From: Candidatus Woesearchaeota archaeon
GTDB lineage: Archaea > Nanobdellota > Nanobdellia > Woesearchaeales > JAZDKJ01
NCBI GenBank assembly: GCA_043803105.1
Contig: JAZDKJ010000006.1
Location: 208,673-272,672 of the forward strand
DNA length: 64,000 bases
Direction: 5' to 3'
The notes beneath the pieces were generated by a model. That model did no database searches and was not told the origin of the DNA. It saw nothing but the letters and a program-made list of their open reading frames with translations. Shown here piece by piece: positions 21,369 to 53,322 of the stretch. Numbering within the stretch: the stretch's first letter is position 1; each line of letters starts with the position of its first letter. The position numbers were made by a program, and so were the translations under genes.

Positions 21369-22397
21369 TTGATGAAGGTTGCCATCTCAATGGAAGAGAA
21401 ACGGCAAAGGGTCAAGGACAGGGCTCTTCTGCTTGTCGATAACTTATCAAGCAGTCTCTATGAGGAGGACATCCATGCTTTGTCCATAAGGTTCTTCTCG
21501 GTGATCCATGAGTTTTTCGCTGATTTTTGCGGTCTGCGCTATCAGTTCACCTATCCAGAGCTCATTTCAGAGATTAGGAAGCGCAACTTATTTGATGATT
21601 TCCTGTCCAAAAAGGTTATTGACTTTATTGCTGTGCTCCAGGAAAAGGAGTATAGTAAGACAGAATTTAATGTCTCTGAATTGAACAGGTGCCTAAAGGG
21701 ATTCAGGCTGATCATAAAGAGTTGTTCTGTCTCGACTACTCACCATGGCATGCACCATAGATTTTATTACCTATTCCAAAGGTTTGGCTTCCTTACAGCC
21801 CACCTTGCCAAGCGTTTTGGCAAGCGCGATGTAGATGATATAGTCTGCCTCATCAACTCTGCAAGGTCAAACCTCGACGAACATAACATCGACCAGGCTC
21901 AGAAAACTTATGAGGATATCATCAAGCTCTACAACAGGTTGTCTGCTGAGGAGAGGAAAAGCGTCTTTCACGGGATTCATTCCCTCTATGCATCAATTGA
22001 GAAGGCTTATACAGAAAGCCTGCTAAAGCAAATTGACAGTCTCTTTGAGGATCTGCATCACCAGCTTGATTCTGGAGACCTCGCCAAGGCCGCTGAAACC
22101 TATTCTTCACTTCAGGCGCGATATGATGAATTGCCTCCTGCGAATAAGAAAAGGCTGTATTCAGAGATTGGACATTGTTACACAGATCTGCAGGCTCTGC
22201 GTGACAAGTCAGCACTCACAGACTTTGACAGGCTTCTCGTAAGGATAAAGGCTGGTGTTACGAGCCAAAAGGTGAGCCTTGCGATGTCTTTGTATAATGA
22301 GGCAGACAACCTATATTCGCAGCTCCCGTTCAGACTGCAGCAAAAGGTCTATACCAATTTGAAGTCCACTTTCAGTCTGCTCTCACGGTTGAGCTGA
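21369..22397 (+). CDS. hypothetical alpha-helical Tyr/Leu-repeat protein, homologous to the cytoplasmic tail of the 723-aa surface protein
   Basis: FTYPELISEIRKRNL...EYSKTEF aligns with FTYEEIAVELRKRRV...EYSNYVV of ORF 27835-30006. Three ~36-aa repeats of the form xxY...LY..L......K.Y..I...Y. Its stop abuts the convergent giant gene. Confidence 0.5.
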   Translation: MMKVAISMEEKRQRVKDRALLLVDNLSSSLYEEDIHALSIRFFSVIHEFFADFCGLRYQFTYPELISEIRKRNLFDDFLSKKVIDFIAVLQEKEYSKTEFNVSELNRCLKGFRLIIKSCSVSTTHHGMHHRFYYLFQRFGFLTAHLAKRFGKRDVDDIVCLINSARSNLDEHNIDQAQKTYEDIIKLYNRLSAEERKSVFHGIHSLYASIEKAYTESLLKQIDSLFEDLHHQLDSGDLAKAAETYSSLQARYDELPPANKKRLYSEIGHCYTDLQALRDKSALTDFDRLLVRIKAGVTSQKVSLAMSLYNEADNLYSQLPFRLQQKVYTNLKSTFSLLSRLS

Positions 22398-27518: not shown

Positions 27519-27838
27519 TTGTTTTGCTTATTGTCCACAGTATATTGCACCTCAACAGTGTTCTGCCCAACTTGTACATCTTGCCATGTGCATCTTATTC
27601 CTTCTTGTATTGCTGAGCAAATGTTTGTGTCTGCTTTGGTTGGATAGCCTTCAATCGTTGCCACTATGTTCTGCCCTTTGCTTAAAATGATTTCATCATT
27701 GCACCTGATGTGGTGGATTTCTTCTTGCGACATTACCAAGTAGCTGGTTAATGACTGAGTGTCGAGCATCAGGCTTATAGCTGCTAATATGGTGGTTATT
27801 AGCACCAGGAGCCCCATTTGCTGTTTCCACTGCCTCAT
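27491..27838 (-). CDS. small secreted or membrane-anchored Cys-containing protein
   Basis: Signal-anchor GLLVLITTILAAI, four Cys, and a position between the two large surface genes with short overlaps on both sides. Confidence 0.4.
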   Translation of the reverse strand: MRQWKQQMGLLVLITTILAAISLMLDTQSLTSYLVMSQEEIHHIRCNDEIILSKGQNIVATIEGYPTKADTNICSAIQEGIRCTWQDVQVGQNTVEVQYTVDNKQNNCTIKVRMT

Positions 27839-30006
27839 TTCTTCTCCTTTGTTGATTTATGTAGTTCGTCGTACAGCCTTCGTACTGCTGCAAAGTATTG
27901 TCTCTGGTCTTGCTCGCTCAAGACCTTGTAAAGTTTCATCACTTGCTTGTACCCTCGAACCGCTGCCTGTTGGTCATTCTTGTGCATTGCCTCAAATACA
28001 TTGTATATCAACTCAAACATCTGCCTGGATTTTCCTTCTATTTTCCATGAGGTTTTGTTTTGTATAATACGCATGTCTGTGCTCTGCTTGATTATTCTGC
28101 GAAGTTCTTCTATCAAGTTTGCTAGCTCCTCGCTTGACACTACATAATTGCTGTACTCTATCTCTTTGATTCTTCGCAGCAATGATTCCGCTATTCCTTG
28201 CAACTTTGGATCAACCCTCCTTTTCCTAAGTTCTACAGCTATCTCCTCGTAGGTAAATTCATAATCCAGTCTAAGCATTGCCTTGAAGAATTGCTTGGTT
28301 GCGCTGCCAAGCTCCTTGATGCCTTCCTTTGGATGTCTTACATCAATCGAGTCCAGTTGTGCCAAGACCTCCTCATAAGTTGTCGTCTCTGTTCTGAAGG
28401 TCAATTTCATCAGCTGTGCAAGGTTCTGGCTCGTTCTGTGTTTTTCTAGTACCTTGGTTACATATGGTTTGCTAATCATGATACCAACTAGGATTGCCAT
28501 TGTAAGGAGGCTAATCAAAATAATTGACCATCCTGTGAAAGCCTCCTGCAAAGTCTCTATTGATATCGGCTGCTCTGTAGCTATTACCGCCTCTCCCGCC
28601 CCGCCAGGTTGCGCTAGGCATGGTTCGCAAGGTCCTCCGCAATCTATGCCTGCCTCTTCCTGGTTCTTTACCCTGTCATAGCATGTGGCGCATGGCTGGC
28701 ATGGTCCGCCGCAATCAACACCCTCCTCATTCCGGTTCCACACTCCGTCAATGCATTGGGGTATGCCCTTGCATGGCTGGCTTATGCTCGGCCTCTTCTT
28801 TATGGTGTTGCAATTGTTTAGGTCTATGCAGTTCCTGTACATTGTGCCGTTTTCAAGGCAGCCATCCCACCTCTGGCAGAACCACTCTTCAACGCACTTA
28901 ATGCTTCCACCACCTCCGCCTCCGCCTCCGCCTGCAGCTGCCGGTACTATAGGTGGTGGTGTAGTGACGCGGAGTGAAACATTGTTGCTTCTGTTGCTTG
29001 CACCCCAATTGTCTGTTACAGTGAAGTACACCAATTCATTGCCAATCCATCCTTGCGGCTGTGAGAAAACCACAAAATTGTTGCTCGTTGGGTAAATGTC
29101 TGCTTTTATTACGTGCAGCGGATTGAGATATACAACATTGAAGTATAGGTGGTCGTCCCTGTCAGGGTCAAACACAAAATCATTCAGGTAGAATGCCGCC
29201 CTTATCTGATTTACAAACCAGGTCTGTGGCTCTAGGTTCCTGATAAACCTTGGTGGCCTGTTGACATTGGTTATGTTCACTGTCCAGTTTAGCATTCTCG
29301 TGTTGTTGAATTGGTCTGACAGCATGATTGACACATTGAAAATGCCTACCGAAGTGAAGTTGGTGTTAAGTGCATACCTGCTGCTTCCAGTTGCATTGGC
29401 TGTGCTGTTTCTTGTCTGCCCGTTGACTCTCCATTGTAGGCTGACTGTCTCATTTAGGGTTTCAAAGAATGAGACCTTGAACCGCAAGGTCTTGTTCTCG
29501 CTTATGTTGACTTTCGGGAATTTGCTGTATACTGATTGATTTGGGTAATAACCTGTTATGTTTGGTGGTAGGTTTTTTATTATCGTGATGTTCAGGCTTT
29601 TGGTTGTTAGCCTGTTTGAGCAAATTGAACTGTCATCTGCTGTTATGTTGACCGTTTGCCTTCCTGTATTGGCATTGCTGGCTGTAAAGTAGATTACTCC
29701 GGTAATTGGGTCTATGTCAAACATGGTACTGTCATCAAAATAGGTGATTGTGTCGTTGTGCGGGTCAGTTGCATTGGCTCTGCAAAAATAATAGTAGAAA
29801 GCTGTGAAGTTCTTTGGGCAATTGATATTGAGTTGCGGCGGTACATTGATGCACAGGTTCAACAGTGCTTCTGAAAAGTCGCTTGCTTTGCCTGTTAGCC
29901 GTGTTGGTGCACTGGCTTCTTGGTAGATTCTCACGTTTATGTAAAAGCCTATGATTACGAAAACAACCGCCACTGCGGCTATTGTGTTGTTTGAGATCCT
30001 AATCAT
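27835..30006 (-). CDS. 723-aa single-pass surface protein with a cadherin-like repeat ectodomain, poly-Gly linker, Cys-rich module, TM helix and cytoplasmic Tyr/Leu-repeat domain
   Basis: Signal peptide, VNRPP motif, a G9 linker, two GxDCGGPC(Q/E)PC repeats, the TM helix WSIILISLLTMAILVGIMI, and a C-terminal domain homologous to ORF 21369-22397. Confidence 0.7.
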   Translation of the reverse strand: MIRISNNTIAAVAVVFVIIGFYINVRIYQEASAPTRLTGKASDFSEALLNLCINVPPQLNINCPKNFTAFYYYFCRANATDPHNDTITYFDDSTMFDIDPITGVIYFTASNANTGRQTVNITADDSSICSNRLTTKSLNITIIKNLPPNITGYYPNQSVYSKFPKVNISENKTLRFKVSFFETLNETVSLQWRVNGQTRNSTANATGSSRYALNTNFTSVGIFNVSIMLSDQFNNTRMLNWTVNITNVNRPPRFIRNLEPQTWFVNQIRAAFYLNDFVFDPDRDDHLYFNVVYLNPLHVIKADIYPTSNNFVVFSQPQGWIGNELVYFTVTDNWGASNRSNNVSLRVTTPPPIVPAAAGGGGGGGGGSIKCVEEWFCQRWDGCLENGTMYRNCIDLNNCNTIKKRPSISQPCKGIPQCIDGVWNRNEEGVDCGGPCQPCATCYDRVKNQEEAGIDCGGPCEPCLAQPGGAGEAVIATEQPISIETLQEAFTGWSIILISLLTMAILVGIMISKPYVTKVLEKHRTSQNLAQLMKLTFRTETTTYEEVLAQLDSIDVRHPKEGIKELGSATKQFFKAMLRLDYEFTYEEIAVELRKRRVDPKLQGIAESLLRRIKEIEYSNYVVSSEELANLIEELRRIIKQSTDMRIIQNKTSWKIEGKSRQMFELIYNVFEAMHKNDQQAAVRGYKQVMKLYKVLSEQDQRQYFAAVRRLYDELHKSTKEKK

Positions 30007-30154
30007 TGTCCTTCTTTTCTTTGTACTTGAGCAACATGTGCCTGATTCCCTCTCGTGTTATCTCTGCTTGGTTGCTGAACAGTCCCTTATCTATCAGCTC
30101 CTGCATCTGCCTCTTCATTTCTTTTCCGACACGTATATGGATTAGCGTTGCCAT
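29999..30154 (-). CDS. ribbon-helix-helix (CopG/Arc-like) DNA-binding protein, 51 aa
   Basis: MATLIHIRVGKEMKRQMQELIDKGLFSNQAEITREGIRHMLL. Start taken at the internal ATG at 30154. Overlaps the start of the 723-aa gene by 8 nt. Confidence 0.55.
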   Translation of the reverse strand: MATLIHIRVGKEMKRQMQELIDKGLFSNQAEITREGIRHMLLKYKEKKDND

Positions 30155-30322
30155 TTTGCTATTTATAAGTATCAGAAATATAACTAATTGATATATATAA
30201 ATATTTGTATATAAGTAGATAGAATAAAACAGATATATCGAAATGATACACTTAAGATACACTTTATTATAGGGCAGTCAAAATAATCTACAAAAGGCTT
30301 AAAAACCTAGAAACCGCAATCT
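30155..30322. promoter_or_regulatory. AT-rich promoter region with several TATA-like boxes heading the RHH and surface-protein operon
   Basis: ATATATAAATATTTGTATATAAG-type elements upstream of the minus-strand RHH gene. Confidence 0.3.
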
Positions 30323-44935: not shown

Positions 44936-45580
44936 TTATTTTACTTGTTTTTTTCTGTTTCTTATATAGTCAACAAGTAGGTAAATTGCCAGCGCAGAAA
45001 CAGCACCTACCCCAAACCACACCAAAAGGTACCCGGTGGACGGTGCAACACTTTGGATCATTGGCGCTACCTCAGCTGCCCGTGATGCTGTCTCGTTCAC
45101 AGCATCGCCTCCTGCAGCACTAGGAACTGTCATCAGCGGAGGAAGTGCCCTGTCTACAGCTTTCTGTGCAGCCATTGTGCCTGTTGTAAAACTCCTGGAA
45201 AAAAGTCCGATAAATGCAGCTCCAACTCCCAGAATCAGAACCACTGGAAGTATTGATTTCAGTTTCTCCTTGATGCCGTAGACGCTTCTTGGAGCGATGA
45301 TTATATACTTATTGGCTAGTCTATAATGGTTTACTTCCTTTCCCTTCTCACTATAATGAAATTCCTCTGATTTAACTAAGCCTCCTTCCACAAGTTGTTT
45401 TAGGTTGTAATGCACTGTGGAGATTGGGATCTGAAGCTTCCCAGAAAGTTCAGACTCAGTAGCGTCCTTCTCAGCTAGATAGTCCAGAATCTTCCGGCAA
45501 CTATCATTTGTTATGACCTGGGCAAGCTTTTTTGCCTTGTCATCTTGTAGGCTCACCAATACAAACTTTTCATTGGGCAT
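44936..45580 (-). CDS. ArsR-like wHTH fused to a two-TM membrane domain
   Basis: SCRKILDYLAEKDATESELSGKLQIPISTVHYNLKQLVEGGLV, then TM helices. Confidence 0.5.
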   Translation of the reverse strand: MPNEKFVLVSLQDDKAKKLAQVITNDSCRKILDYLAEKDATESELSGKLQIPISTVHYNLKQLVEGGLVKSEEFHYSEKGKEVNHYRLANKYIIIAPRSVYGIKEKLKSILPVVLILGVGAAFIGLFSRSFTTGTMAAQKAVDRALPPLMTVPSAAGGDAVNETASRAAEVAPMIQSVAPSTGYLLVWFGVGAVSALAIYLLVDYIRNRKKQVK

Positions 45581-45677: not shown

Positions 45678-46223
45678 GTGGATGTAATAAAAAATCCGAT
45701 GATTCTTGAAAGATCTTTCAAACATGAGTGTAGAAAACCAATCGTTTACGTCAGCCGTGACTGTAAATTTATGAACTTTTTCTATTCAATAATTAAGCAA
45801 GTAGATTCCACGATTCTTGGTCTATATGAATTCAAAGTCATCTATCTACATTTTAACCACTCAAGTGCAATGTTATCTTACGATGGGAATTGTATTGATA
45901 TAAAAGTTAAGGCAGACGACGAACGACGTGAAACAGAAACGCTTTTTGAGCTAAACGGAGAGGAAGGAAAAAAGAGGAACAACTGGCACAGCCTTATGGA
46001 CTATGTTAGTAATCTTCAAAGTTTCGGATTTGCCAAGATTATTGATCCTTATAATTCCCCCTTTCATTGTTTTGGTCATTTTGCTGGATGTTCAATTTCT
46101 GTTGCCGGATTCCGTGACCTTCAACATATAGTAAGAATATATTGTGAGGATGAGGAGCCCTTGTTAGCTGCTTACAAGCAGCTTTTCATGGCTGGCCTTC
46201 GCTGCAATCCTCATCCAACATAA
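45678..46223 (+). CDS. hypothetical protein (181 aa)
   Basis: ORF only. Confidence 0.3.
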   Translation: MDVIKNPMILERSFKHECRKPIVYVSRDCKFMNFFYSIIKQVDSTILGLYEFKVIYLHFNHSSAMLSYDGNCIDIKVKADDERRETETLFELNGEEGKKRNNWHSLMDYVSNLQSFGFAKIIDPYNSPFHCFGHFAGCSISVAGFRDLQHIVRIYCEDEEPLLAAYKQLFMAGLRCNPHPT

Positions 46224-46957: not shown

Positions 46958-47425
46958 TTATATTTTTCCTTTTAACCTTCTCTCCATCTCCTTATCATCG
47001 CTAAGCCTTGAGTCAAGCTTGGCCCTGATCTTGCGTATCTCGATTAATACATCTTCTGCATATCTGCTTCCTATCCTGGGTACACCCTGCAACCCTTTTA
47101 TCAGTTGCTCGAAGTCCTTGAGTGATTTTATCCTCTCGTTCTCTAGCATCAATGCGTTGTATTTTATCTCCTCAAGGCTGAAGAAATCTGTCTTGAAGCG
47201 TTCTATGCCTCTAGCTATTAGGTGTTGGGTATCCGTGTATTCTTGGCTTGTTTTCGTTCGTCTGGGGTCTTTTTCTATTGGGGGGACTGGCTTTCTCAGT
47301 ATCTTTTCAAGCTCCCTGTTAACCTTGTCTGGCACATCCGCATTGTTTCTTATTGACCAGCTTTTCCTGCTTATCTCCCTTGCAAGCTTCCAATCAGGCC
47401 TACTGCTCCAAAAGCCGAATCTCAT
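46958..47425 (-). CDS. hypothetical protein (155 aa)
   Basis: ORF; charged, helical. Confidence 0.35.
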   Translation of the reverse strand: MRFGFWSSRPDWKLAREISRKSWSIRNNADVPDKVNRELEKILRKPVPPIEKDPRRTKTSQEYTDTQHLIARGIERFKTDFFSLEEIKYNALMLENERIKSLKDFEQLIKGLQGVPRIGSRYAEDVLIEIRKIRAKLDSRLSDDKEMERRLKGKI

Positions 47426-47665
47426 GCTGATTTTTCCATATTGTGCATTATTTAAATCTTGCCAAATTTCTCATGTGTATTAATGTGTATTAATACAAAC
47501 ATGCTACGTATGTAAGTATATTTATCGATAAAATATACAATAAAACTTAATTATACACACAAATACATCCAAATTTATTGCATTACATCGAAAGATTTAT
47601 AAGCAAATCGTGTGTATAAATAAATAATTACTCATATTTTGTTGCAAAAGTACATACAAATACAC

Positions 47666-47836
47666 AATGCCAAGGCATCATTCAGACAAGGAGAGGTACA
47701 ATTTTCTCATTGACAGGTCTGTCTACGATGATTTTTCCATGCTCTGCGAGGACCTTGGATTAGTGCGCTCAAAAAAGCTTGAGAACTATATGAAACAGTT
47801 TATTGAGGAGAATAAGCAGTTGTTGAAGAAGCTTAA
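47666..47836 (+). CDS. ribbon-helix-helix-like small protein (56 aa), below the ORF-track cutoff
   Basis: Hand translation MPRHHSDKERYNFLIDRSVYDDFSMLCEDLGLVRSKKLENYMKQFIEENKQFVEEA, a beta-strand plus two helices. It lies 6 nt upstream of the 667-aa gene, after an AT-rich promoter with the GTGTATTAAT direct repeat. Confidence 0.5.
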
Positions 47837-47842
47837 AGAAAA

Positions 47843-49846
47843 ATGAATCACAAACTTTCGCTCTCATTGATTGTTTGCTTAGCAATAATTCCCATTGCCT
47901 ATGCAGCCTTCCCATATCCCTGGTCTTCTAATTACTATAGTAGCTACCCTGGAACCTCTTACGGTTATTATCCAGGTACAGGCATTTATACTGCCTTTGG
48001 AGCTGTTGGCGAGCAGATTTTCGGAATCCTTACCAATACATATTCTGTTTATGCAGTGACTTTTGTGTTGTTCTTTATCCTGCTGTATTCAATCTTCTGT
48101 GTAGGTATCACCAAGGTCAAAGTTTTTTCTTCTGAAGGGAAGATTAGCAGGCAAGGTAAGATGGCAGCAATCGCCTTTGCAATGCTCGGTGACATGGGCA
48201 TTTTCTACTATGTATATAACAGCTATGATGCTGTGCAAAGGATTCTTGGCACAATGGGCTGGTTTGGTAGTCTTGCCTTTGCTGGAATGGTTTTTGCTAT
48301 TACCTATTATAATCTTAAGACCAATGACACTGGCAAGGTGCATAAGGGCCCTGCATGGTTTGCTGCTGGCCTGGCTTTGCTTGTTTACGGCATGTTCACC
48401 AATAGTCCTGGTGCAGCTACGTGGGGCACAATAATCCTCATAGTTACCGCAATCTGGGCTGGCATTAGCAGCTTTGGCGGTGGCGGGCAAAGAGGTGAGA
48501 ACGAGCGTTTGCGCGACTTGAGGGAGCGCGACCATGAAGAGCGCGAGCGTGCAGGGCGAAGGACTGCTGAAGAGCGTGCTCTGACGCCAAGCAGGGTTAC
48601 CGGGCTCCAAGGTAACTTGCAAGGAGCTCCCCCGCAAGTACAACTTACTTGGACTGCTAATCCTGATGGCGAGAATATTTCGCATTATGAAATCCGCAGG
48701 AGGACTGCCAGTAATGCCACCGGTTCTTGGCTTAGGAGAGGCTTAGGCTCATTGGGAAGAACCTTTGTCTGGGGTGGATGGACCACACTTCCGTCCGTTA
48801 CAACTACAAACTACAATGACACATCAGTTTCCCCGGCCTATACTTATGAGTATTGCGTCCGTGCAGTCAACACCTCAGGCAGGCATGGACCATGGAGCTT
48901 CAATTGGCCTACCACAGCAGTTGCTGCGGCCGCGGGACCAGGGAGGATTCGAGGTCATGTTGTCTTCCATGATGGCCGGCAGCCTGTTCCGAGGAATCTC
49001 ACCAATATCAACATTACAGTCCTTGGCCATACCACTCCTGTCAATAATCAGGGCCGTTTTGACATACAAAATCTTGGTGCAGCTGTTGCCTACAATGTAG
49101 TCATAACTGACCCTACCAATACTTACACTCAAAGGACTATCCAGAACGTGCCTCCTGGTATGGATGCAGACTTTGGCGATATTGTGCTTCAACCAAGGCC
49201 TGGTGCCATGGCGCAACTTATTGTTGTTATTCAAAATGCTGCCGGTGCTCCATATAATCCTCCTGTCACGATCGCTGCTCTCGGCGCCTTGGGAGCCCCC
49301 CAGGTATTTCCCGTTGCTGTTGGTTCACCGATGCATTTGGGTGCCGGCAGGTATTCGTTTCCTGTTAGGGCAGGCTTTTTTTATAGTGCCTGGGCTACAG
49401 ACCTTGCCACAGGTGCAGACTCCGGTCATGACAGGACCAATGGTATCCTTCTCAGAATGCCTCAAGCTCAGATTCCTAATCCGCTCCAGATGGCAGTTCC
49501 TGGAGGGCTGGCCGTGGTCAATGGGACTGTCCAGTCTAGCGCCTTTCCAAATGCTCATGTCGGCAATGGTGGTGTGGTCACAATTGGGGCCAGTCCACCA
49601 GTTAGAACTAATGCTATGGGACAATATGCAACAGGCCCAGTAAACATAGGCCCTAACAGAGTTCAAGTGCATAATCTTTTCGGTCTCTACCAAGACTATG
49701 ACACCGCCCCAAATCCGGGCATCGTGACTGTGGCAGGGCCAAATCCCTTCCCTATTTTTGTTAATCCAATGGTGCAGGTGCCAGGTCCAGTTAACGCTAC
49801 CATAACAGGTCCTGGAGTTGCAGCCTATAACTTGATATTTCCATGA
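47843..49846 (+). CDS. multi-TM membrane protein with a charged linker and FN3-like / beta-sandwich extramembrane domains
   Basis: Signal plus 4-5 TM helices, an RGENERLRDLRERDHEERERAGRR linker, then an FN3-like segment (PPQVQLTWTANPDG...YEIRRR...YTYEYCVRAVNTSG). The 3' two-thirds of the gene is noticeably GC-richer than its surroundings. Confidence 0.6.
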   Translation: MNHKLSLSLIVCLAIIPIAYAAFPYPWSSNYYSSYPGTSYGYYPGTGIYTAFGAVGEQIFGILTNTYSVYAVTFVLFFILLYSIFCVGITKVKVFSSEGKISRQGKMAAIAFAMLGDMGIFYYVYNSYDAVQRILGTMGWFGSLAFAGMVFAITYYNLKTNDTGKVHKGPAWFAAGLALLVYGMFTNSPGAATWGTIILIVTAIWAGISSFGGGGQRGENERLRDLRERDHEERERAGRRTAEERALTPSRVTGLQGNLQGAPPQVQLTWTANPDGENISHYEIRRRTASNATGSWLRRGLGSLGRTFVWGGWTTLPSVTTTNYNDTSVSPAYTYEYCVRAVNTSGRHGPWSFNWPTTAVAAAAGPGRIRGHVVFHDGRQPVPRNLTNINITVLGHTTPVNNQGRFDIQNLGAAVAYNVVITDPTNTYTQRTIQNVPPGMDADFGDIVLQPRPGAMAQLIVVIQNAAGAPYNPPVTIAALGALGAPQVFPVAVGSPMHLGAGRYSFPVRAGFFYSAWATDLATGADSGHDRTNGILLRMPQAQIPNPLQMAVPGGLAVVNGTVQSSAFPNAHVGNGGVVTIGASPPVRTNAMGQYATGPVNIGPNRVQVHNLFGLYQDYDTAPNPGIVTVAGPNPFPIFVNPMVQVPGPVNATITGPGVAAYNLIFP

Positions 49847-51294
49847 CAACAGAAAAAGAACAAGCAATCGTTGAAGAGCTGAAAGATAAATTGTCCCAGG
49901 AGCTCGAAGAACAAAGACAGGAACTAGAGGAAAATCTTTCCAAGCTTGCTTCTGAATTTGAGCAATCCAAAAAGGCCATGTTTGAGGAAGAGCAGTCAAA
50001 GCTCAAGCATTCTCTCAAAATGCAAAAGAAGTATTCTTCAGCCAAGGATTTTAATGCTGAGCATCCTGAACTTGTTGGAAAGCAATTAATCGCCCATTTT
50101 GTCTTGCTGTTGCCAGGAGAATTGAAACCATTTATCGCTCCAGAACAAAATACCCCCATTAGCAAGCTTGCAGGCAGGTTAGTTCACGTTGAGCCGATAT
50201 CCTCACAGGAAAAGGTTCATTTGGAGTTGGATATCAAGCAACAGAAAATTGTGGACTGGATCAAAGACAGGATGGTTTCCGTCTTGAAAACAAATCAGTG
50301 TTTCATAGGTTTATTCTTGACTCCTGGAGGGGTCAGTATGCAGGATTCGAACTTTACAGCCAAAATACAGCTCACAAGTCAGTTGTTGTGGCCAGAATGC
50401 GATGAGGAAGAACTGCCGCTGTGCAACTTGAACCCGGACAGAAGCCTGTCCTTGTCAGTCAAAGGCAGAAAGCCTGAAGAGGGGAAAGACAAGCCAAAAG
50501 AGGAGCGGGAGGAACTTCTCGAGCTTCAGGAAGAAATAAAGGATGATATCCAAAAAATATCAGAAGATGAAAAAGAAATCAAAAAAGAGCATGAAAAAGT
50601 CAAGGTAACCATTGATAATGAAATACCTTACAAGGATAAGATTATGAGAGACCTTCAAGCTATGAAAAAGATTTTGGAGGATGCAAAGGCTCAGGGCGGA
50701 ATCTTCAGGGAAAAAGAAGCAGCTAGGATAGTAACTGACAGATTAAACAAACTTAATGGGGAGATTCAGAAGCTTAATAATAAGTTCTTGCCGTGGCTAA
50801 TAAAAGCAGTCAATGAGGTTGAAGAAAATTTAATCTTTAAAGAAGACCAGCATGCAGAACTTTTGGCAAGAAGAATACAGGAACATTTCAATCTTCCCAA
50901 ATTTGTTGAGAATGATTCAAACGCACCTAGGATGTACCAGAATTGCCTGCAGTATGCTGAACAGCTAAAAAAATTGATAGCGAATCGCAATAACTCAATA
51001 AGAATCATTAAGCAGAGATATATACCCTACATCGAAAACAAATATAATAAAAGAAAAATCGAACAGGGCTTTATTAAGGGACTGATCACAGACCTAGAAA
51101 AAAATAAACTGGACACAGCCATAAACAAGATTACACAGCTTTTCAATGATTTTCATATGGTGCATGTGCACATAGATAGTATTAAGACTCATCTTAAACA
51201 AGTGGATGTATACACTGCACAAATTGACACACCAAAAATACTAGGTGATATCTTAAGGTATGTGACCGAAACTCAACCATCATTGAAACAGTAA
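49843..51294 (+). CDS. coiled-coil hypothetical protein (483 aa)
   Basis: E/K-rich heptads. Start overlaps the upstream stop by 4 nt. C-terminal RRIQEHFNLPKF...APRMYQNCLQYAEQL block shared with the next gene. Confidence 0.5.
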   Translation: MTTEKEQAIVEELKDKLSQELEEQRQELEENLSKLASEFEQSKKAMFEEEQSKLKHSLKMQKKYSSAKDFNAEHPELVGKQLIAHFVLLLPGELKPFIAPEQNTPISKLAGRLVHVEPISSQEKVHLELDIKQQKIVDWIKDRMVSVLKTNQCFIGLFLTPGGVSMQDSNFTAKIQLTSQLLWPECDEEELPLCNLNPDRSLSLSVKGRKPEEGKDKPKEEREELLELQEEIKDDIQKISEDEKEIKKEHEKVKVTIDNEIPYKDKIMRDLQAMKKILEDAKAQGGIFREKEAARIVTDRLNKLNGEIQKLNNKFLPWLIKAVNEVEENLIFKEDQHAELLARRIQEHFNLPKFVENDSNAPRMYQNCLQYAEQLKKLIANRNNSIRIIKQRYIPYIENKYNKRKIEQGFIKGLITDLEKNKLDTAINKITQLFNDFHMVHVHIDSIKTHLKQVDVYTAQIDTPKILGDILRYVTETQPSLKQ

Positions 51295-51298
51295 AAAG

Positions 51299-52291
51299 AT
51301 GAAGCATCAAAAAACATTAGATAAACAAGAACCCGGCTCAGTAACCATCCAGCTCAAGGAGCTGGACAACAACGAGCCATTGCAGGGTGTTGAGGTCACA
51401 ATAATCATTGGTCCTAATAGCTCTAAGCAGCGTTTCACTGATGATAGCGGTGTAGCTATGTTCTCCAATCTTCCATCTGGAAAGCTCGAGCTTAGCATTT
51501 CAGATTCAAACTTTATCTTTGACCACATGCAGTTTAGGGGGAAGAGCCATAAGGACACAAAGTTCACTTTGCAGCCTAATGAGAGCCTTAACATTCTTGT
51601 TTACATGAAGACAATCGTTATGCAGGAAGGCTTGGACGAGCTTCTTGCTTCAGAGGGCTCCTCAGGGCATGCAGAGCCAACAAGCGACACCGTATGGAGC
51701 TTTAGCCGTATGGTCTCAGGAAATGATGATGCAAGAAAGTCTATTGCCCTTGCCTGCCTTTCAGACATAAATAGTGAGCTAAAACAGTTATTGGCAGAGC
51801 CCACAAACCTAAAGCAGAAATTCAGCGAGACTGAGGCTTCGCTAACTTTCAAGGGTCATAAAGACCATAAGGAGATGGCGATAAGGATTCAGGAGCACCT
51901 GGGATTGCCAAAGTGGGAGCATGAGCATCCAAAAGCGCCAGCAATATGGGAGCTTTGCCTTAATGTTGCAAGAAAACTGCACCCCCTTGTGGTTGAGCGC
52001 GATAATCTTCGCCAGGTTGTGAGGACAAACATCGAGAAGATGGAAGAATACGCTCAGCTTATTTCTAGCCAACAGCAAGTTGCAAAAGTCTTGGACGAGC
52101 TCGAAAATTCAAGGACTGATAAGGCCTTGAATAGGCTTAGCCAATTGTCCGGACAGCTAAAGACTTTCAAGCTGATTGTTTCATCAACTAAGGCCAAAAT
52201 TTATGCGATTGGTGAATACACAAATCTTATTGACAGTAAGCAAAGGATTGCTTGGATTAAAGATAACGTAAGAAAACCTTTAGAGGTGTGA
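51299..52291 (+). CDS. hypothetical protein with N-terminal carboxypeptidase-regulatory-like beta-sandwich and C-terminal coiled coil (330 aa)
   Basis: N-terminal GVEVTIIIGPNSSKQRFTDDSGVAMFSNLPSGKLELSI and C-terminal IRIQEHLGLPKW...APAIWELCLNVARKL homologous to the upstream gene. Confidence 0.5.
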   Translation: MKHQKTLDKQEPGSVTIQLKELDNNEPLQGVEVTIIIGPNSSKQRFTDDSGVAMFSNLPSGKLELSISDSNFIFDHMQFRGKSHKDTKFTLQPNESLNILVYMKTIVMQEGLDELLASEGSSGHAEPTSDTVWSFSRMVSGNDDARKSIALACLSDINSELKQLLAEPTNLKQKFSETEASLTFKGHKDHKEMAIRIQEHLGLPKWEHEHPKAPAIWELCLNVARKLHPLVVERDNLRQVVRTNIEKMEEYAQLISSQQQVAKVLDELENSRTDKALNRLSQLSGQLKTFKLIVSSTKAKIYAIGEYTNLIDSKQRIAWIKDNVRKPLEV

Positions 52292-53322
52292 ATATGCCTG
52301 GAGAAAACAAGATAATCTGTGGTTCAAGATCGTTCTACAGGGTAAAGTTCCTGGCCAATTTTCTTCCCAGGATAATGTCTCTAGTGACGCAGGATGAGAG
52401 GGTGCAGGTAGACGAATTGATTAAGAGGATTATGCAGGTTGAGGGAGAACTGCACGAGGAATTGCATGGGGGCATCAAGATAGGTGCCGCAGACAAGGTT
52501 GTCAGTGTTGAGAAACATCTCGTAAAATTGTATAAGAAAGAGATTGAACAGCTTTATATCATTGACGAGGACAGCCTGAAGGTTGAAGGCGAAGAAATAA
52601 ACCATCTGAACTTGATTGGCAAATCATTGGATTCTGTGATGCAAAAGCTAAAAGACCCTGCCAAGCTCAGAGGTTGCAGGCATGCGCTCTATGACTTTAA
52701 TAAAGAGCAGGTTAGGCTTAACATGATAATTGGCTCAATGGGGGACAGCCAGAAGACTATGTGGGTCAGGCAGGGAAACCTTGTCCAGAAGTCCATAAAG
52801 AACTTCAGTGTTGCGACAGCTACTGATAAGGTCAGGGGGCTCGGAACCCAAATGGTCTTGTTTGGCAGGCAGATAAGGAAGCAGACACCAGTCTTCACGC
52901 AGGCAGCGCGAGAGATAGAGCACTTTGATAAAGAGCTTGAAGCATCTCTTGACAATCCAGAAAAGGTGAAAGATATTCTAGGAAGTATTACTAAATCAAT
53001 GTCAAAGTTTGAGGAATTCCTTAATGATCTTTTCAATGCGACAATAGGAATGAGAATAGCTACTCTCTATCTCTTGATGATTGTATTGCAGCACGAGGAA
53101 GAGGACGTAAAGGCGCTTGATGCCCTCTTAGGAACAGGTTTTTCCAAGGCAAAACATGATGCCATAATTGTAGAATACAACAAATTGGACAAAGAGGAAA
53201 AGAGTATTGAGCAGAAAGAGATGTGGCTTGAGGAGGAGGCCTACCGCCTGGTTCAGGACATCCTTGCATTGGAACAGCGATTGCTCGAGGACGAAGAAAT
53301 TGACCTTAAGCTGGCCACCTAA
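52288..53322 (+). CDS. coiled-coil hypothetical protein (344 aa)
   Basis: Start overlaps the upstream stop by 4 nt; helical, charged. Confidence 0.5.
   Translation: MNMPGENKIICGSRSFYRVKFLANFLPRIMSLVTQDERVQVDELIKRIMQVEGELHEELHGGIKIGAADKVVSVEKHLVKLYKKEIEQLYIIDEDSLKVEGEEINHLNLIGKSLDSVMQKLKDPAKLRGCRHALYDFNKEQVRLNMIIGSMGDSQKTMWVRQGNLVQKSIKNFSVATATDKVRGLGTQMVLFGRQIRKQTPVFTQAAREIEHFDKELEASLDNPEKVKDILGSITKSMSKFEEFLNDLFNATIGMRIATLYLLMIVLQHEEEDVKALDALLGTGFSKAKHDAIIVEYNKLDKEEKSIEQKEMWLEEEAYRLVQDILALEQRLLEDEEIDLKLAT

What the first reader, a model, noticed from the sequence alone, without database searches (positions are those of the whole stretch)
47426..53322. Second RHH-led operon: a GC-shifted multi-TM/FN3 protein followed by three translationally coupled coiled-coil proteins
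After an AT-rich promoter with the GTGTATTAAT direct repeat, a 56-aa RHH gene precedes a 667-aa protein. That protein has 4-5 TM helices, a strongly charged linker and FN3-like or beta-sandwich domains. Its 3' 1.4 kb is visibly GC-richer (GCGGCCGCGGGACCAGGG...) than the flanks, suggesting foreign origin. Three coiled-coil genes follow with ATGA-type overlaps. Two share a C-terminal RIQEH.(N/G)LPK(F/W)...AP..(Y/W)..CL..A..L block, and one carries a carboxypeptidase-regulatory-like N-domain. The architecture (small RHH regulator, envelope protein, coiled-coil partners) parallels the other surface locus and may be a distinct envelope or contact apparatus.
Basis: partly seen in the sequence, partly recalled or inferred. 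Interest (0 to 1): 0.55.

Follow-up and report, generated by a model that had tools for sequence, protein, structure and literature searches.

The report
Orphan membrane-complex operon of Woesearchaeota
This is a real five-gene operon, found only in a handful of related Woesearchaeota (DPANN archaea), that encodes a small regulator, a multi-pass membrane protein with a 499-residue lysine-free tail, and three helical partner proteins with no known relatives; its function is unknown, and its GC-rich patch reflects amino-acid composition, not foreign DNA.

Summary
The genes are real and the operon is conserved. The window comes from a Candidatus Woesearchaeota MAG. The same gene set, always ending tail-to-tail with the ribosomal protein L35Ae gene, recurs in at least four other metagenomic lineages.

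- **p1 (59 aa, not 56)** is only weakly RHH-like, of RelB/DinJ type.
- **p2** has a signal peptide, 5 TM helices, an E/R linker, an FN3 domain above Pfam's threshold, and beta-sandwich domains.
- **p3 and p4** share a roughly 170-aa helical domain. An exhaustive HMMER scan of 1.84 billion proteins found it in only 9.
- **p4** has a prealbumin/CnaB-like N-domain.
- **p5** is a bundle of six long helices with no structural match.

The GC shift is the strongest in the window, but it lies in codon positions 1 and 2. GC3 is normal, and the orthologues show the same pattern, so foreign origin is not supported. The cause is a conserved lysine-free, Gly/Ala/Pro/Val-rich tail.

No enzyme, defence, viral or known-system signature was found. 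There is no homology to the window's other surface locus. Whether the p2 tail faces in or out is unresolved: the charge rule says in, the composition says out.

My best reading is a clade-specific, autoregulated structural membrane complex of unknown role. Interest is moderate.

The parts
47475..47494 (+). Exact tandem repeat GTGTATTAAT x2 in the divergent intergenic region. It may be a distal operator or belong to the promoter of the upstream minus-strand gene.
   Evidence: One copy (TGTGTATTAAT) is kept in L001.
47596..47602 (+). TATA-box-like TTTATAA, conserved in three genomes.
   Evidence: Read directly from the sequences. Its role as the promoter is inferred.
47610..47621 (+). GTGTGTATAAAT, invariant in the window, L001 and L003. 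It lies 7 nt downstream of the TATA-like box and is a candidate operator for p1.
   Evidence: Binding by p1 is inferred, not shown.
47660..47665 (+). ATACAC, the inverted half-site of GTGTAT, directly before the p1 start codon. It is conserved in all three genomes, and in L003 it forms a full inverted copy, ATTAATACAC.
47667..47846 (+). p1: a 59-aa small basic protein with a beta-alpha-alpha pattern, RelB/DinJ-like RHH by weak evidence. It is the presumed regulator.
   Evidence: 76-85% identical in L001 and L003. Pfam RelB hits the L003 copy at E 0.024 and PDB DinJ is hit at E 0.34. The window copy has no Pfam hit.
47843..49846 (+). p2: a 667-aa membrane anchor. Its start overlaps the p1 stop (ATGA).
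   Evidence: NCBI names it 'fibronectin type III domain-containing protein'.
48017..48478 (+). p2 TM core (aa 59-212), with five hydrophobic helices. It is the best-conserved part of p2: 79% identity to L001 and 49% to L003. The short cytoplasmic loops are Lys-rich and conserved.
48479..48577 (+). p2 E/R-rich charged linker (aa 213-245): 10 Arg, 8 Glu, 0 Lys.
48578..48922 (+). p2 FN3 domain (aa 246-360).
   Evidence: Pfam fn3 E 8.2e-6, 26.4 bits against a 25-bit cut-off. The PHROG tail-fibre J FN3 region also matches, at E 6e-7.
48923..49843 (+). p2 beta-sandwich and tail region (aa 361-667), with 0 Lys and 0 Glu. It is part of a 499-aa lysine-free run (aa 169-667) and is the GC-rich stretch.
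   Evidence: CarboxypepD_reg matches at E 0.029 here and at 3.5e-7 in the L003 orthologue.
49843..51294 (+). p3: 483 aa, with a heptad-like N-segment, a conserved globular module (about aa 62-200), a charged helical region and the shared C-domain. Its start overlaps the p2 stop (ATGA).
50731..51291 (+). Shared helical C-domain of p3 (aa 297-483).
51299..52291 (+). p4: 330 aa, with a prealbumin/CnaB-like beta-sandwich (aa 13-105), a disordered linker (aa 108-140) and the shared helical C-domain (aa 143-329, pLDDT above 90).
52288..53322 (+). p5: about 342-344 aa (the start is uncertain, GTG at 52288 or ATG at 52294). It is all-helical, with six helices of 40-60 residues, and is the fastest-evolving member at 28% identity to L001.
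46958..47425 (-). Divergently transcribed 155-aa charged helical protein. It is a possible accessory gene and is not part of the conserved core.
   Evidence: 43% identical in L001. No tblastn match in L002-L006; only L003 covers the region upstream of p1.

Best explanation
This is a vertically inherited five-gene operon restricted to one small clade of Woesearchaeota. It encodes a structural, membrane-anchored protein complex with no enzymatic component.

- **Regulation (inferred).** p1 is a small RelB/DinJ-like ribbon-helix-helix protein. It most likely represses the operon by binding the conserved GTGTAT(A/T)AAT / ATACAC sites. These bracket the region between the TATA-like box and the start codon.
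- **Co-production (inferred from overlaps).** Overlapping stop and start codons couple synthesis of p1, p2 and p3, and probably of p4 and p5.
- **Membrane anchor.** p2 has a signal peptide and five TM helices. By the positive-inside rule, its E/R linker, FN3 domain and lysine-free beta-sandwich tail lie on the cytoplasmic face.
- **Partners.** The signal-less proteins p3, p4 and p5 would sit on that same face.
- **Modularity (shown by comparison of loci).** p3 and p4 use a shared 170-aa helical domain with an invariant helix-loop-helix motif (A.R.QE...PK...P.AP..W..CL). I read this as a common docking or heterodimerisation module (the role itself is inferred). It carries exchangeable N-terminal heads: a beta-sandwich in p4, an alpha/beta module in p3, and beta-rich repeats in relatives.
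- **Scaffold (inferred).** p5 is an elongated six-helix scaffold.

The cellular role is not known. Candidates are membrane architecture, an attachment site or division.
For: - **Conserved operon.** The same order recurs in L001, L002 and L003/L006, and a variant in L004/L005. It always ends convergent with L35Ae, while the upstream neighbours differ.
- **Coupling.** Stop/start overlaps are read directly from the ORF coordinates.
- **Promoter elements.** They are conserved in three genomes.
- **p1 fold.** Weak RelB and DinJ matches.
- **p2 topology.** All 8 Lys lie in the signal n-region and in the two loops predicted to be inside. For a 5-TM model the K+R count is 15 inside and 1 outside. p3-p5 have no hydrophobic N-termini.
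- **Shared C-domain.** BLASTP E 6e-16 between p3 and p4. The family has only 9 members among 1.84e9 representatives. The AF2 model has pLDDT above 90.
- **Modular heads.** The beta-rich module is fused to the C-domain in L001 and L002, is a separate gene in L003, and is absent from the window.
- **No enzyme or defence signature.** Pfam, NCBIfam, PADLOC and PHROGs gave nothing.
- **Not viral.** Three IMG/VR scans found nothing.
Against: - No physical interaction, expression or localisation data exist.
- TM4 is only marginally hydrophobic (19-residue mean Kyte-Doolittle about 1.1, my hand calculation, below the 1.4 threshold). If it does not span the membrane, the tail is outside.
- The tail's composition is more extreme than that of the window's genuine surface proteins and unlike its cytoplasmic beta-sandwiches. 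It has 0 K and 0.7% E, and is rich in G/A/P/V/N/T.
- FN3 and CarboxypepD_reg-like domains are usually extracellular in prokaryotes (general knowledge).
- The p1 fold assignment rests on sub-threshold hits. A stronger but isolated hit goes to the yeast Chd1 chromodomain, at E 1e-4.
- The p5 model is of only moderate confidence, pLDDT 68.
Confidence: 0.42

Rival explanations
1. One reading: the same complex, but TM4 does not span the membrane. The lysine-free FN3/beta-sandwich stalk of p2 is then displayed outside on an E/R-rich spacer as an envelope or host-contact structure. The conserved short cytoplasmic loops of p2 would couple it to an internal p3/p4/p5 scaffold.
For: - The tail's composition is extracellular-like and extreme.
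- Every part of p2 that is certainly outside also lacks Lys, and all Lys sit in loops predicted to be inside. 'No Lys outside' is therefore the more economical rule.
- FN3 and prealbumin-like domains are typical surface modules, matching pilins, adhesins and phage tail fibres.
- The cytoplasmic loops are strongly conserved.
- The tail varies in length between genomes, at 479, 641 and 667 aa.
Against: - Seven Arg lie within 25 residues after TM5, which violates the positive-inside rule for an outside location.
- N-glycosylation sequon density is 1.76 per 100 aa, against 4.4-6.3 in the window's genuine surface proteins.
- The system already uses beta-sandwiches without signal peptides, in p4 and in L003's 455-aa protein.
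- TM4 is conserved as a hydrophobic, small-residue helix in four orthologues.
Confidence: 0.3
2. An anti-virus defence or abortive-infection module, or other accessory island cargo: a small regulator, a membrane effector and helical sensor proteins (Zorya-like logic).
For: - The pre-computed annotation of the L003 p3 orthologue listed a weak ZorA-like_t1 hit.
- p5 and the N-terminal modules evolve fast or are shuffled.
- An RHH-type regulator leads the operon.
Against: - The ZorA-like hit was not reproduced by hmmscan at E <= 0.5.
- PADLOC gave no hit below E 0.18 for p1-p5.
- There is no NTPase, nuclease or protease domain.
- The operon occupies the same chromosomal position, next to L35Ae, in every locus. 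This points to vertical inheritance, not island mobility.
- IMG/VR holds no relatives.
Confidence: 0.07
3. The GC-rich 3' part of p2 is a recently acquired foreign segment.
For: It is the highest-GC 1.4 kb in the window, about 3.9 sd above the mean. Arg replaces Lys throughout, as in high-GC organisms.
Against: - GC3 is normal or low in the window and in three orthologues.
- The tail is collinear and 39-44% identical with L003.
- Lysine avoidance is conserved in all orthologues.
- The apparent link to a Streptomyces protein is a clustering artefact.
Confidence: 0.04
4. The genes are adjacent but functionally unrelated hypothetical genes, so there is no complex.
For: No interaction data exist. 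The p3/p4 junction has a 4-nt gap. L004 shows a different order, with the p5-like gene before p4.
Against: Four to five genes co-occur in every lineage found. There are overlapping junctions, paralogous domains in two of the genes, and domain fusions between the gene products across genomes.
Confidence: 0.07

Closest known systems
RelB/DinJ/CopG-type ribbon-helix-helix regulators
   Same: p1 is small (59 aa) and has an N-terminal beta-strand-like segment (RYNFLID) followed by two helices with a G-L-x-R-S turn. It sits first in the operon, next to conserved inverted GTGTAT half-sites. It gives weak matches to RelB (Pfam, E 0.024, L003 copy) and DinJ (PDB, E 0.34).
   Different: No match reaches a curated threshold. 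There is no toxin partner. A numerically better but isolated match goes to the yeast Chd1 chromodomain (E 1e-4).
Prokaryotic surface proteins built from FN3 and CarboxypepD_reg/CnaB (prealbumin-like) beta-sandwiches, such as Gram-positive pilins, adhesins and phage tail fibres
   Same: The p2 FN3 domain passes Pfam's threshold. The p4 N-domain superposes on CnaB2 and pilin domains (Foldseek E 4e-4, TM 0.66 on the target).
   Different: p4 has no signal peptide. p2 is anchored by an N-terminal 5-TM core instead of a sortase or C-terminal anchor. The predicted topology puts its domains inside. No isopeptide-forming Lys is possible in p2, because it has none.
Lysine deserts (Szulc et al. 2023, PMC10665810; Kampmeyer et al. 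2023, PMC10169902)
   Same: The lysine-free run of 499 aa, 75% of the protein, meets both published definitions (at least 150 aa, or at least 50% of the sequence). It is evolutionarily conserved.
   Different: Lysine deserts were described for eukaryotic ubiquitin-system proteins and for pupylating Actinobacteria, where high GC confounds the picture. PMC10665810 does not mention archaea. Here the genome has 44% GC and 7.6% Lys, the region is folded beta-sandwich rather than disordered, and no link to a ubiquitin-like system is shown.
Zorya ZorA (MotA-like membrane protein with a long helical tail)
   Same: A membrane component plus long helical proteins in one operon, and a weak pre-computed ZorA-like_t1 flag on one orthologue.
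   Different: The hit was not reproducible. There is no ZorB/MotB partner, no ZorC/D/E, no PADLOC hit and no MotA-type TM core.
ESCRT-III/Snf7 and PspA/Vipp1 helical-hairpin membrane remodellers
   Same: There are long antiparallel helices in the p3/p4 C-domain and in p5. One BFVD hit went to a giant-virus Snf7 protein (E 2.8e-3, TM 0.25-0.29).
   Different: There are no Pfam Snf7 or PspA hits and no ESCRT-III or PspA structure in the top 50 PDB matches. The hairpin is not N-terminal, and there is no Vps4-like ATPase.

Membership tests
Ribbon-helix-helix (RelB/DinJ/CopG) regulators | Sequence match to an RHH family model above its curated threshold | tested here: not met
   The window p1 gave 0 Pfam families even at E <= 10. 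The L003 orthologue hit RelB at E 0.024, 15.0 bits against a 22.4-bit cut-off. PDB DinJ was hit at E 0.34.
Ribbon-helix-helix (RelB/DinJ/CopG) regulators | Beta-alpha-alpha fold that dimerises to form a two-stranded DNA-binding sheet | not tested
The pattern was only read by eye from the alignment.
Ribbon-helix-helix (RelB/DinJ/CopG) regulators | Repeated or inverted operator sites at its own promoter | tested here: inconclusive
   GTGTGTATAAAT and the inverted ATACAC are conserved in three genomes between the TATA-like box and the ATG. Binding was not tested. Matches with up to 1 mismatch across the window number 9 against 3.8 expected.
Fibronectin type III domain | Pfam PF00041 match above the gathering score | tested here: met
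   p2 aa 260-353, E 8.2e-6, 26.4 bits against 25.
CarboxypepD_reg / prealbumin-like (CnaB) beta-sandwich | Sequence model above threshold | tested here: not met
   p4 scored 22.0 bits against 32.3. p2 scored 15.2 bits. L003's p2 scored 30.9 bits against 32.3.
CarboxypepD_reg / prealbumin-like (CnaB) beta-sandwich | Seven-to-nine-stranded beta-sandwich that superposes on known members | tested here: met
   The AF2 model of p4 aa 13-105 has pLDDT 79-92. Foldseek against PDB found the CnaB2 domain 8bdw at E 4.3e-4 and TM 0.66-0.68 on the target.
Classical coiled-coil proteins | Heptad periodicity beyond that of composition-matched shuffles | tested here: inconclusive
   In a crude heptad score, p3 reached 0.71 against a shuffle 95th percentile of 0.66. 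p4 (0.56 against 0.61) and p5 (0.61 against 0.61) did not exceed shuffles. AF2 shows helical bundles for p4 and p5.
Zorya (ZorA/ZorB) defence system | ZorA/MotA-like and ZorB/MotB-like proteins detectable by HMM | tested here: not met
   PADLOC gave no Zor hits. The Pfam ZorA-like_t1 hit was not reproduced at E <= 0.5.
SNARE-like proteins | SNARE-motif match that is robust to a better profile | tested here: not met
   SNAP-25 was hit at E 0.11 with a 4-sequence profile. The hit vanished with a 10-sequence profile, whose top hits were de novo designed helical proteins.
ESCRT-III / PspA | Snf7 or PspA_IM30 sequence match, or a fold match with a meaningful TM-score | tested here: not met
   There were no Pfam hits. 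The top 50 PDB matches held no ESCRT-III or PspA structure. One BFVD Snf7 hit had TM 0.25-0.29.
Lysine desert | Lys-free stretch of at least 150 aa or at least 50% of the protein, conserved in orthologues | tested here: met
   The run is 499 aa, 75% of p2. P is 2.5e-16 at the window's Lys frequency. The orthologues have 0-2 Lys after the TM core. The definition is from PMC10665810.
Viral or mobile-element origin | Relatives in viral contigs, or a variable genomic position | tested here: not met
   Three IMG/VR scans found nothing. PHROG hits were limited to the FN3 domain. The position next to L35Ae is fixed.

The most novel reading that the evidence does not exclude
The operon encodes a previously undescribed, DPANN-clade-specific membrane machine built from protein families without detectable relatives. 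Its anchor protein carries a conserved 450-500-residue lysine desert in an otherwise lysine-rich proteome. The desert would be an adaptation that keeps a long-lived, exposed beta-sandwich stalk free of primary amines. It could lie at a host-contact or cell-cell bridge site, or on the cytoplasmic face. Either way it would escape lysine-directed tagging (ubiquitin-like/SAMP-proteasome), cross-linking or lysine-specific proteolysis. That would extend the lysine-desert principle to archaea.
Probability: 0.15. Interest if true: 0.7.

Novelty: categorically new. Interest (0 to 1): 0.4.

Why it matters
- **Retention in a reduced genome.** DPANN archaea have small genomes, and most of what mediates their symbiotic lifestyle is unknown. 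A 5.7-kb operon kept at one chromosomal position across several diverged lineages is probably important to them, although it has no relative outside the clade.
- **New protein families.** It supplies at least three: the p3/p4 helical C-domain, p5 and the p2 TM core. It also supplies a testable modular architecture.
- **An unusual lysine desert.** The desert is clean and conserved, and it cannot be blamed on GC content.
- **A methodological point.** A visible GC shift can be purely an amino-acid effect, so GC3 has to be checked before horizontal transfer is invoked.
- **Caveat on novelty.** 'Categorically new' here means unclassifiable with present libraries. It does not mean a new mechanism has been demonstrated.

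Tried and rejected
- **ZorA-like lead.** It came from the pre-computed annotation of L003's 499-aa protein and was not reproduced.
- **SNARE lead.** SNAP-25 was hit at E 0.1 and lost with a richer profile.
- **ESCRT-III lead.** There was only one low-TM viral hit.
- **Chromodomain reading of p1.** A profile hit the yeast Chd1 chromodomain at E 1e-4. Only that one protein was hit, with no other chromodomains and no Pfam Chromo match, so I treat it as chance.
- **Streptomyces link for p2.** p2 sits in a 90% cluster whose representative is an unrelated 50-aa Streptomyces protein. BLASTP shows no similarity, so this is an artefact.
- **p5 as a distant paralogue of the p3/p4 C-domain.** hhalign gave probability 0.3%.
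- **Homology between this operon and the 22-30 kb surface locus.** None was found.
- **Searches of species-representative genomes (GTDB).** Scans with the p2 and p4 profiles found nothing.
- **Viral contigs.** Nothing was found.
- **Rfam and tRNA scans of the window.** Nothing was found.
- **Bacterial promoter and terminator scan.** Counts were within about 1.3 sd of the shuffles, and the scan does not apply to archaea.
- **SCO2097-family hit on the p2 TM4-TM5 region.** It scored 19.8 bits against a 110-bit cut-off and was disregarded.
- **Sequon density as a topology test.** It was uninformative: 2.1 times expectation, against 2.2 times for the window background and 3.0-3.3 times for genuine surface proteins.
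- **Literature searches.** A search for Woesearchaeota with FN3 or coiled-coil found nothing relevant.


Full report
**Source and genes.** The window comes from a Candidatus Woesearchaeota MAG. p3 is 100% identical to NCBI 'V1837_03260' on a 542-kb contig. NCBI names p2 'fibronectin type III domain-containing protein'. On the plus strand between 47667 and 53322 lie five ORFs:

| Gene | Size | Coordinates |
|---|---|---|
| p1 | 59 aa | 47667-47846 |
| p2 | 667 aa | 47843-49846 |
| p3 | 483 aa | 49843-51294 |
| p4 | 330 aa | 51299-52291 |
| p5 | 344 aa from GTG 52288, or 342 aa from ATG 52294 | to 53322 |

The p1/p2 and p2/p3 junctions are ATGA overlaps. The p3/p4 junction has a 4-nt gap. The p4/p5 junction is a GTGA overlap only if the GTG start is used. 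The 344-aa version of p5 is not in the protein collection, so its start is uncertain. The operon ends tail-to-tail with the ribosomal protein L35Ae gene, overlapping it by 4 nt. Upstream are a divergent 155-aa gene, a PAC2 proteasome-chaperone gene and an ArsR-type HTH gene. The window has no tRNA or Rfam matches.

**Is the gene set conserved?** Yes, but very narrowly.
- Word-indexed searches of 5.8 billion protein clusters found, for p3 and for p4, only the protein itself and one homologue each.
- An exhaustive HMMER search of 1.84 billion representatives with the shared C-domain profile found nine proteins in all.
- Their contigs show the same operon:
  - L001: p1, p2, p3, p4, p5, L35Ae, with PAC2 and the 155-aa gene upstream.
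  - L002: p2 fragment, p3, p4, p5, L35Ae.
  - L003, which is the same organism as L006: p1, p2, a p3-type 499-aa gene, an extra 455-aa beta-rich gene, p4, p5, L35Ae.
  - L004/L005: a p5-like gene, p4, L35Ae.
- The upstream neighbour differs between loci; in L003 it is a glycosyltransferase. The convergent L35Ae gene is constant. This indicates vertical inheritance at a fixed locus.
- Identities to L001 are very uneven:

| Gene | Identity to L001 |
|---|---|
| PAC2 | 83% |
| L35Ae | 75% |
| p1 | 85% |
| p2 | 50%, N-terminal 426 aa only |
| p3 | 72%, C-terminal half only |
| p4 | 45% |
| p5 | 28% |

- Scans of GTDB species representatives and of IMG/VR found nothing.

**The GC shift.**
- It is real. 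The ten GC-richest 1.4-kb windows all start between 47.9 and 48.8 kb. The peak is 0.524, against a mean of 0.436 and an sd of 0.022.
- It lies in codon positions 1 and 2. In the p2 tail, GC1 is 0.63 and GC2 is 0.49. In the linker plus FN3 region they are 0.53 and 0.59.
- GC3 there is 0.41-0.48, inside the range of the neighbouring genes (0.40-0.55).
- The orthologues in L001, L002 and L003 show the same pattern, with GC3 of 0.33-0.42.
- The window's tail is collinear with L003's over 621 aa.
- The shift is therefore an old amino-acid effect, and recent foreign origin is not supported.

**The lysine desert.**
- The cause of the GC shift is striking. After K168, p2 has no lysine at all, a run of 499 residues. 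The next-longest run in the window is 127.
- The probability of 0 Lys in 455 aa at the window's 7.6% Lys frequency is 2.5e-16.
- Residues 361-667 also lack Glu. Arg is used freely (32 residues).
- The avoidance is conserved: L003 has 1 Lys in about 450 post-TM residues, L001 has 2 in about 275, and the L002 fragment has 0 in 250.
- This meets both published definitions of a 'lysine desert' (PMC10665810). It does so in a 44%-GC archaeon and in a folded beta-sandwich region.

**p2 anatomy.** In order:
- A signal-peptide-like N-terminus.
- A Tyr/Gly/Ser-rich segment, present only in the window and L001.
- Five hydrophobic helices. TM4 is marginal.
- An E/R-rich linker with 10 Arg, 8 Glu and 0 Lys.
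- An FN3 domain above Pfam's threshold.
- A CarboxypepD_reg-like sandwich and a Pro/Gly/Ala/Val-rich tail of variable length.

The TM core is the most conserved part, at 79% identity to L001 and 49% to L003.

**p2 topology is unresolved.**
- A 5-TM model gives 15 K+R inside and 1 outside, a textbook positive-inside pattern. It puts the tail in the cytoplasm, beside the signal-less p3-p5.
- A 4-TM model puts the tail outside but leaves 8 K+R on each side.
- Against the cytoplasmic model, the tail's composition is more extreme than that of the window's genuine surface proteins. It is also unlike the operon's own signal-less beta-sandwiches.
- Sequon density does not decide the matter.
- I rate the tail as inside about 55-60% and outside about 40-45%.

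**p3, p4 and p5.**
- p3 and p4 share a roughly 170-aa C-terminal domain (BLASTP E 6e-16). Its motif, A.R.QE...PK...P.AP..W..CL, and a C-terminal ID(S/T)P are invariant or nearly so.
- The AF2 model of p4 has mean pLDDT 81.7. It shows a beta-sandwich (aa 13-105), a disordered linker (aa 108-140) and a helical domain (aa 143-329, pLDDT above 90).
- Foldseek matched only the sandwich, to CnaB and pilin domains and to phage tail-fibre domains.
- The helical domain has no convincing PDB or BFVD analogue. Profile searches of PDB sequences return only designed helical proteins.
- The N-terminal modules are exchangeable. The window's p3 N-module (about aa 62-200, with conserved Cys) is orthologous to that of L003's 499-aa protein (E 5e-26). 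L001 and L002 instead fuse a beta-rich module to the C-domain. That module is a separate 455-aa gene in L003 and is absent from the window.
- p5 is predicted as six helices of 40-60 residues (pLDDT 68, pTM 0.64). It has no significant structural match; the best E-value is 0.0097 and TM scores are at most 0.24. It is not related to the C-domain.
- Only p3 shows heptad periodicity above shuffles, in a crude test. 'Three coiled-coil proteins' should therefore read 'three helix-rich proteins'.
- Pfam, NCBIfam, PADLOC and PHROGs give no meaningful hit for the helical domains of p3 and p4 or for p5; the only family signal in p3-p5 is the sub-threshold beta-sandwich match at the p4 N-terminus.

**p1 and the promoter.**
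- p1 is 76-85% identical across three genomes.
- The window copy has no Pfam hit, even at E <= 10.
- The L003 copy gives a sub-threshold RelB hit (E 0.024). The profile gives DinJ at E 0.34. Both are RHH antitoxin-type folds, and the beta-alpha-alpha pattern aligns by eye.
- A numerically better hit (E 1e-4) goes only to the yeast Chd1 chromodomain, and I treat it as chance.
- The intergenic DNA keeps three elements in all three genomes:
  - a TATA-like TTTATAA at 47596-47602;
  - GTGTGTATAAAT, 7 nt downstream of it, at 47610-47621;
  - an inverted ATACAC at 47660-47665, just before the ATG.
It is unique in the window.
- A repressor site between the TATA box and the start of transcription is the classical archaeal arrangement. 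Autoregulation is therefore plausible but inferred.

**Comparison with the other locus.** The 22.4-30.3 kb minus-strand locus encodes genuinely extracellular, sequon-rich proteins: 6.3 and 4.4 sequons per 100 aa in the 1706-aa and 723-aa proteins. A different small RHH-like protein lies upstream of them. There is no sequence similarity between the two loci and no shared promoter motif.

**Verdict.** The inference of foreign origin is wrong. The claimed parallel with the other locus is superficial. The 'envelope apparatus' reading is one of two live topological models.

The best-supported description is a clade-restricted, vertically inherited and probably autoregulated operon. It would encode a non-enzymatic, membrane-anchored multiprotein assembly built from orphan families. 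The assembly has a modular pair of adaptor proteins, and its anchor carries a conserved lysine desert. What the assembly does is unknown.

Orphan operons are common in DPANN genomes, so a specialist would not be astonished. The lysine desert and the modular C-domain make this one a worthwhile target, but not an exceptional one.

Noticed in passing
window 47843-49846 (aa 169-667 of p2): A 499-residue lysine-free run sits in a proteome with 7.6% Lys, and it is conserved in the orthologues. All 8 Lys of the protein lie in the signal n-region and in the two loops predicted to be cytoplasmic.
   Followed up: partly
window 21369-22397 (+) and 27835-30006 (-): The 342-aa helical protein is homologous to the cytoplasmic C-terminal tail of the 723-aa surface protein (BLASTP E 7e-7). 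The ectodomain repeats of the 723-aa and 1706-aa proteins are also homologous (E down to 6e-16). Both ectodomains are extremely rich in N-glycosylation sequons, at 4.4 and 6.3 per 100 aa.
   Followed up: partly
window 29999-30262 (-): A second small RHH-like protein (MATLIHIRVGKEMKRQ...) has a sub-threshold Pfam RHH_8 hit at E 0.031. It lies upstream of the surface-protein genes and is unrelated in sequence to p1.
   Followed up: partly
protein collection, cluster of p2 (P0021/P0022): p2 is filed in a 90%-identity cluster whose representative is an unrelated 50-aa Streptomyces hypothetical protein. This clustering artefact hid p2 from the word-indexed search.
   Followed up: yes
L003 5338-6705 (also L006 1857-3224): An extra 455-aa beta-rich gene lies between the p3-type gene and p4. 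Two regions of it match one L001 p3 N-terminal segment, which suggests an internal repeat. The same module is fused to the C-domain in L001 and L002 and is absent from the window, an example of gene fission or fusion within the operon.
   Followed up: partly
window 47667-47846 (p1 profile): A three-sequence profile of p1 matches the first chromodomain of yeast Chd1 at E 1e-4, with about 36% identity over 47 residues. It matches no other chromodomain, so this is probably chance.
   Followed up: partly
window 45678-46223 (+): A 181-aa GTG-start ORF lies between the HTH and PAC2 genes and overlaps the PAC2 3' end by 13 nt. It has no Pfam hit, and there is no counterpart in the equivalent L001 interval. 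It may be spurious or strain-specific.
   Followed up: no
window 44936-45580 (-): An ArsR/HTH_20-type winged-helix regulator carries hydrophobic segments and a Pro/Ala-rich stretch in its C-terminal half. It is conserved in L001 at 59% identity and may be a membrane-tethered transcription factor.
   Followed up: no
window 53319-53322: p5 and the convergent L35Ae gene overlap tail-to-tail by 4 nt. Adjacency to L35Ae is kept in every related locus.
   Followed up: yes
L001 1551-2372: A tyrosine recombinase (Phage_integrase) gene lies about 6 kb upstream of the operon in L001. It is separated from the operon by methyltransferase, VWA, HTH and PAC2 genes, and nothing suggests the operon is part of a mobile element.
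   Followed up: no
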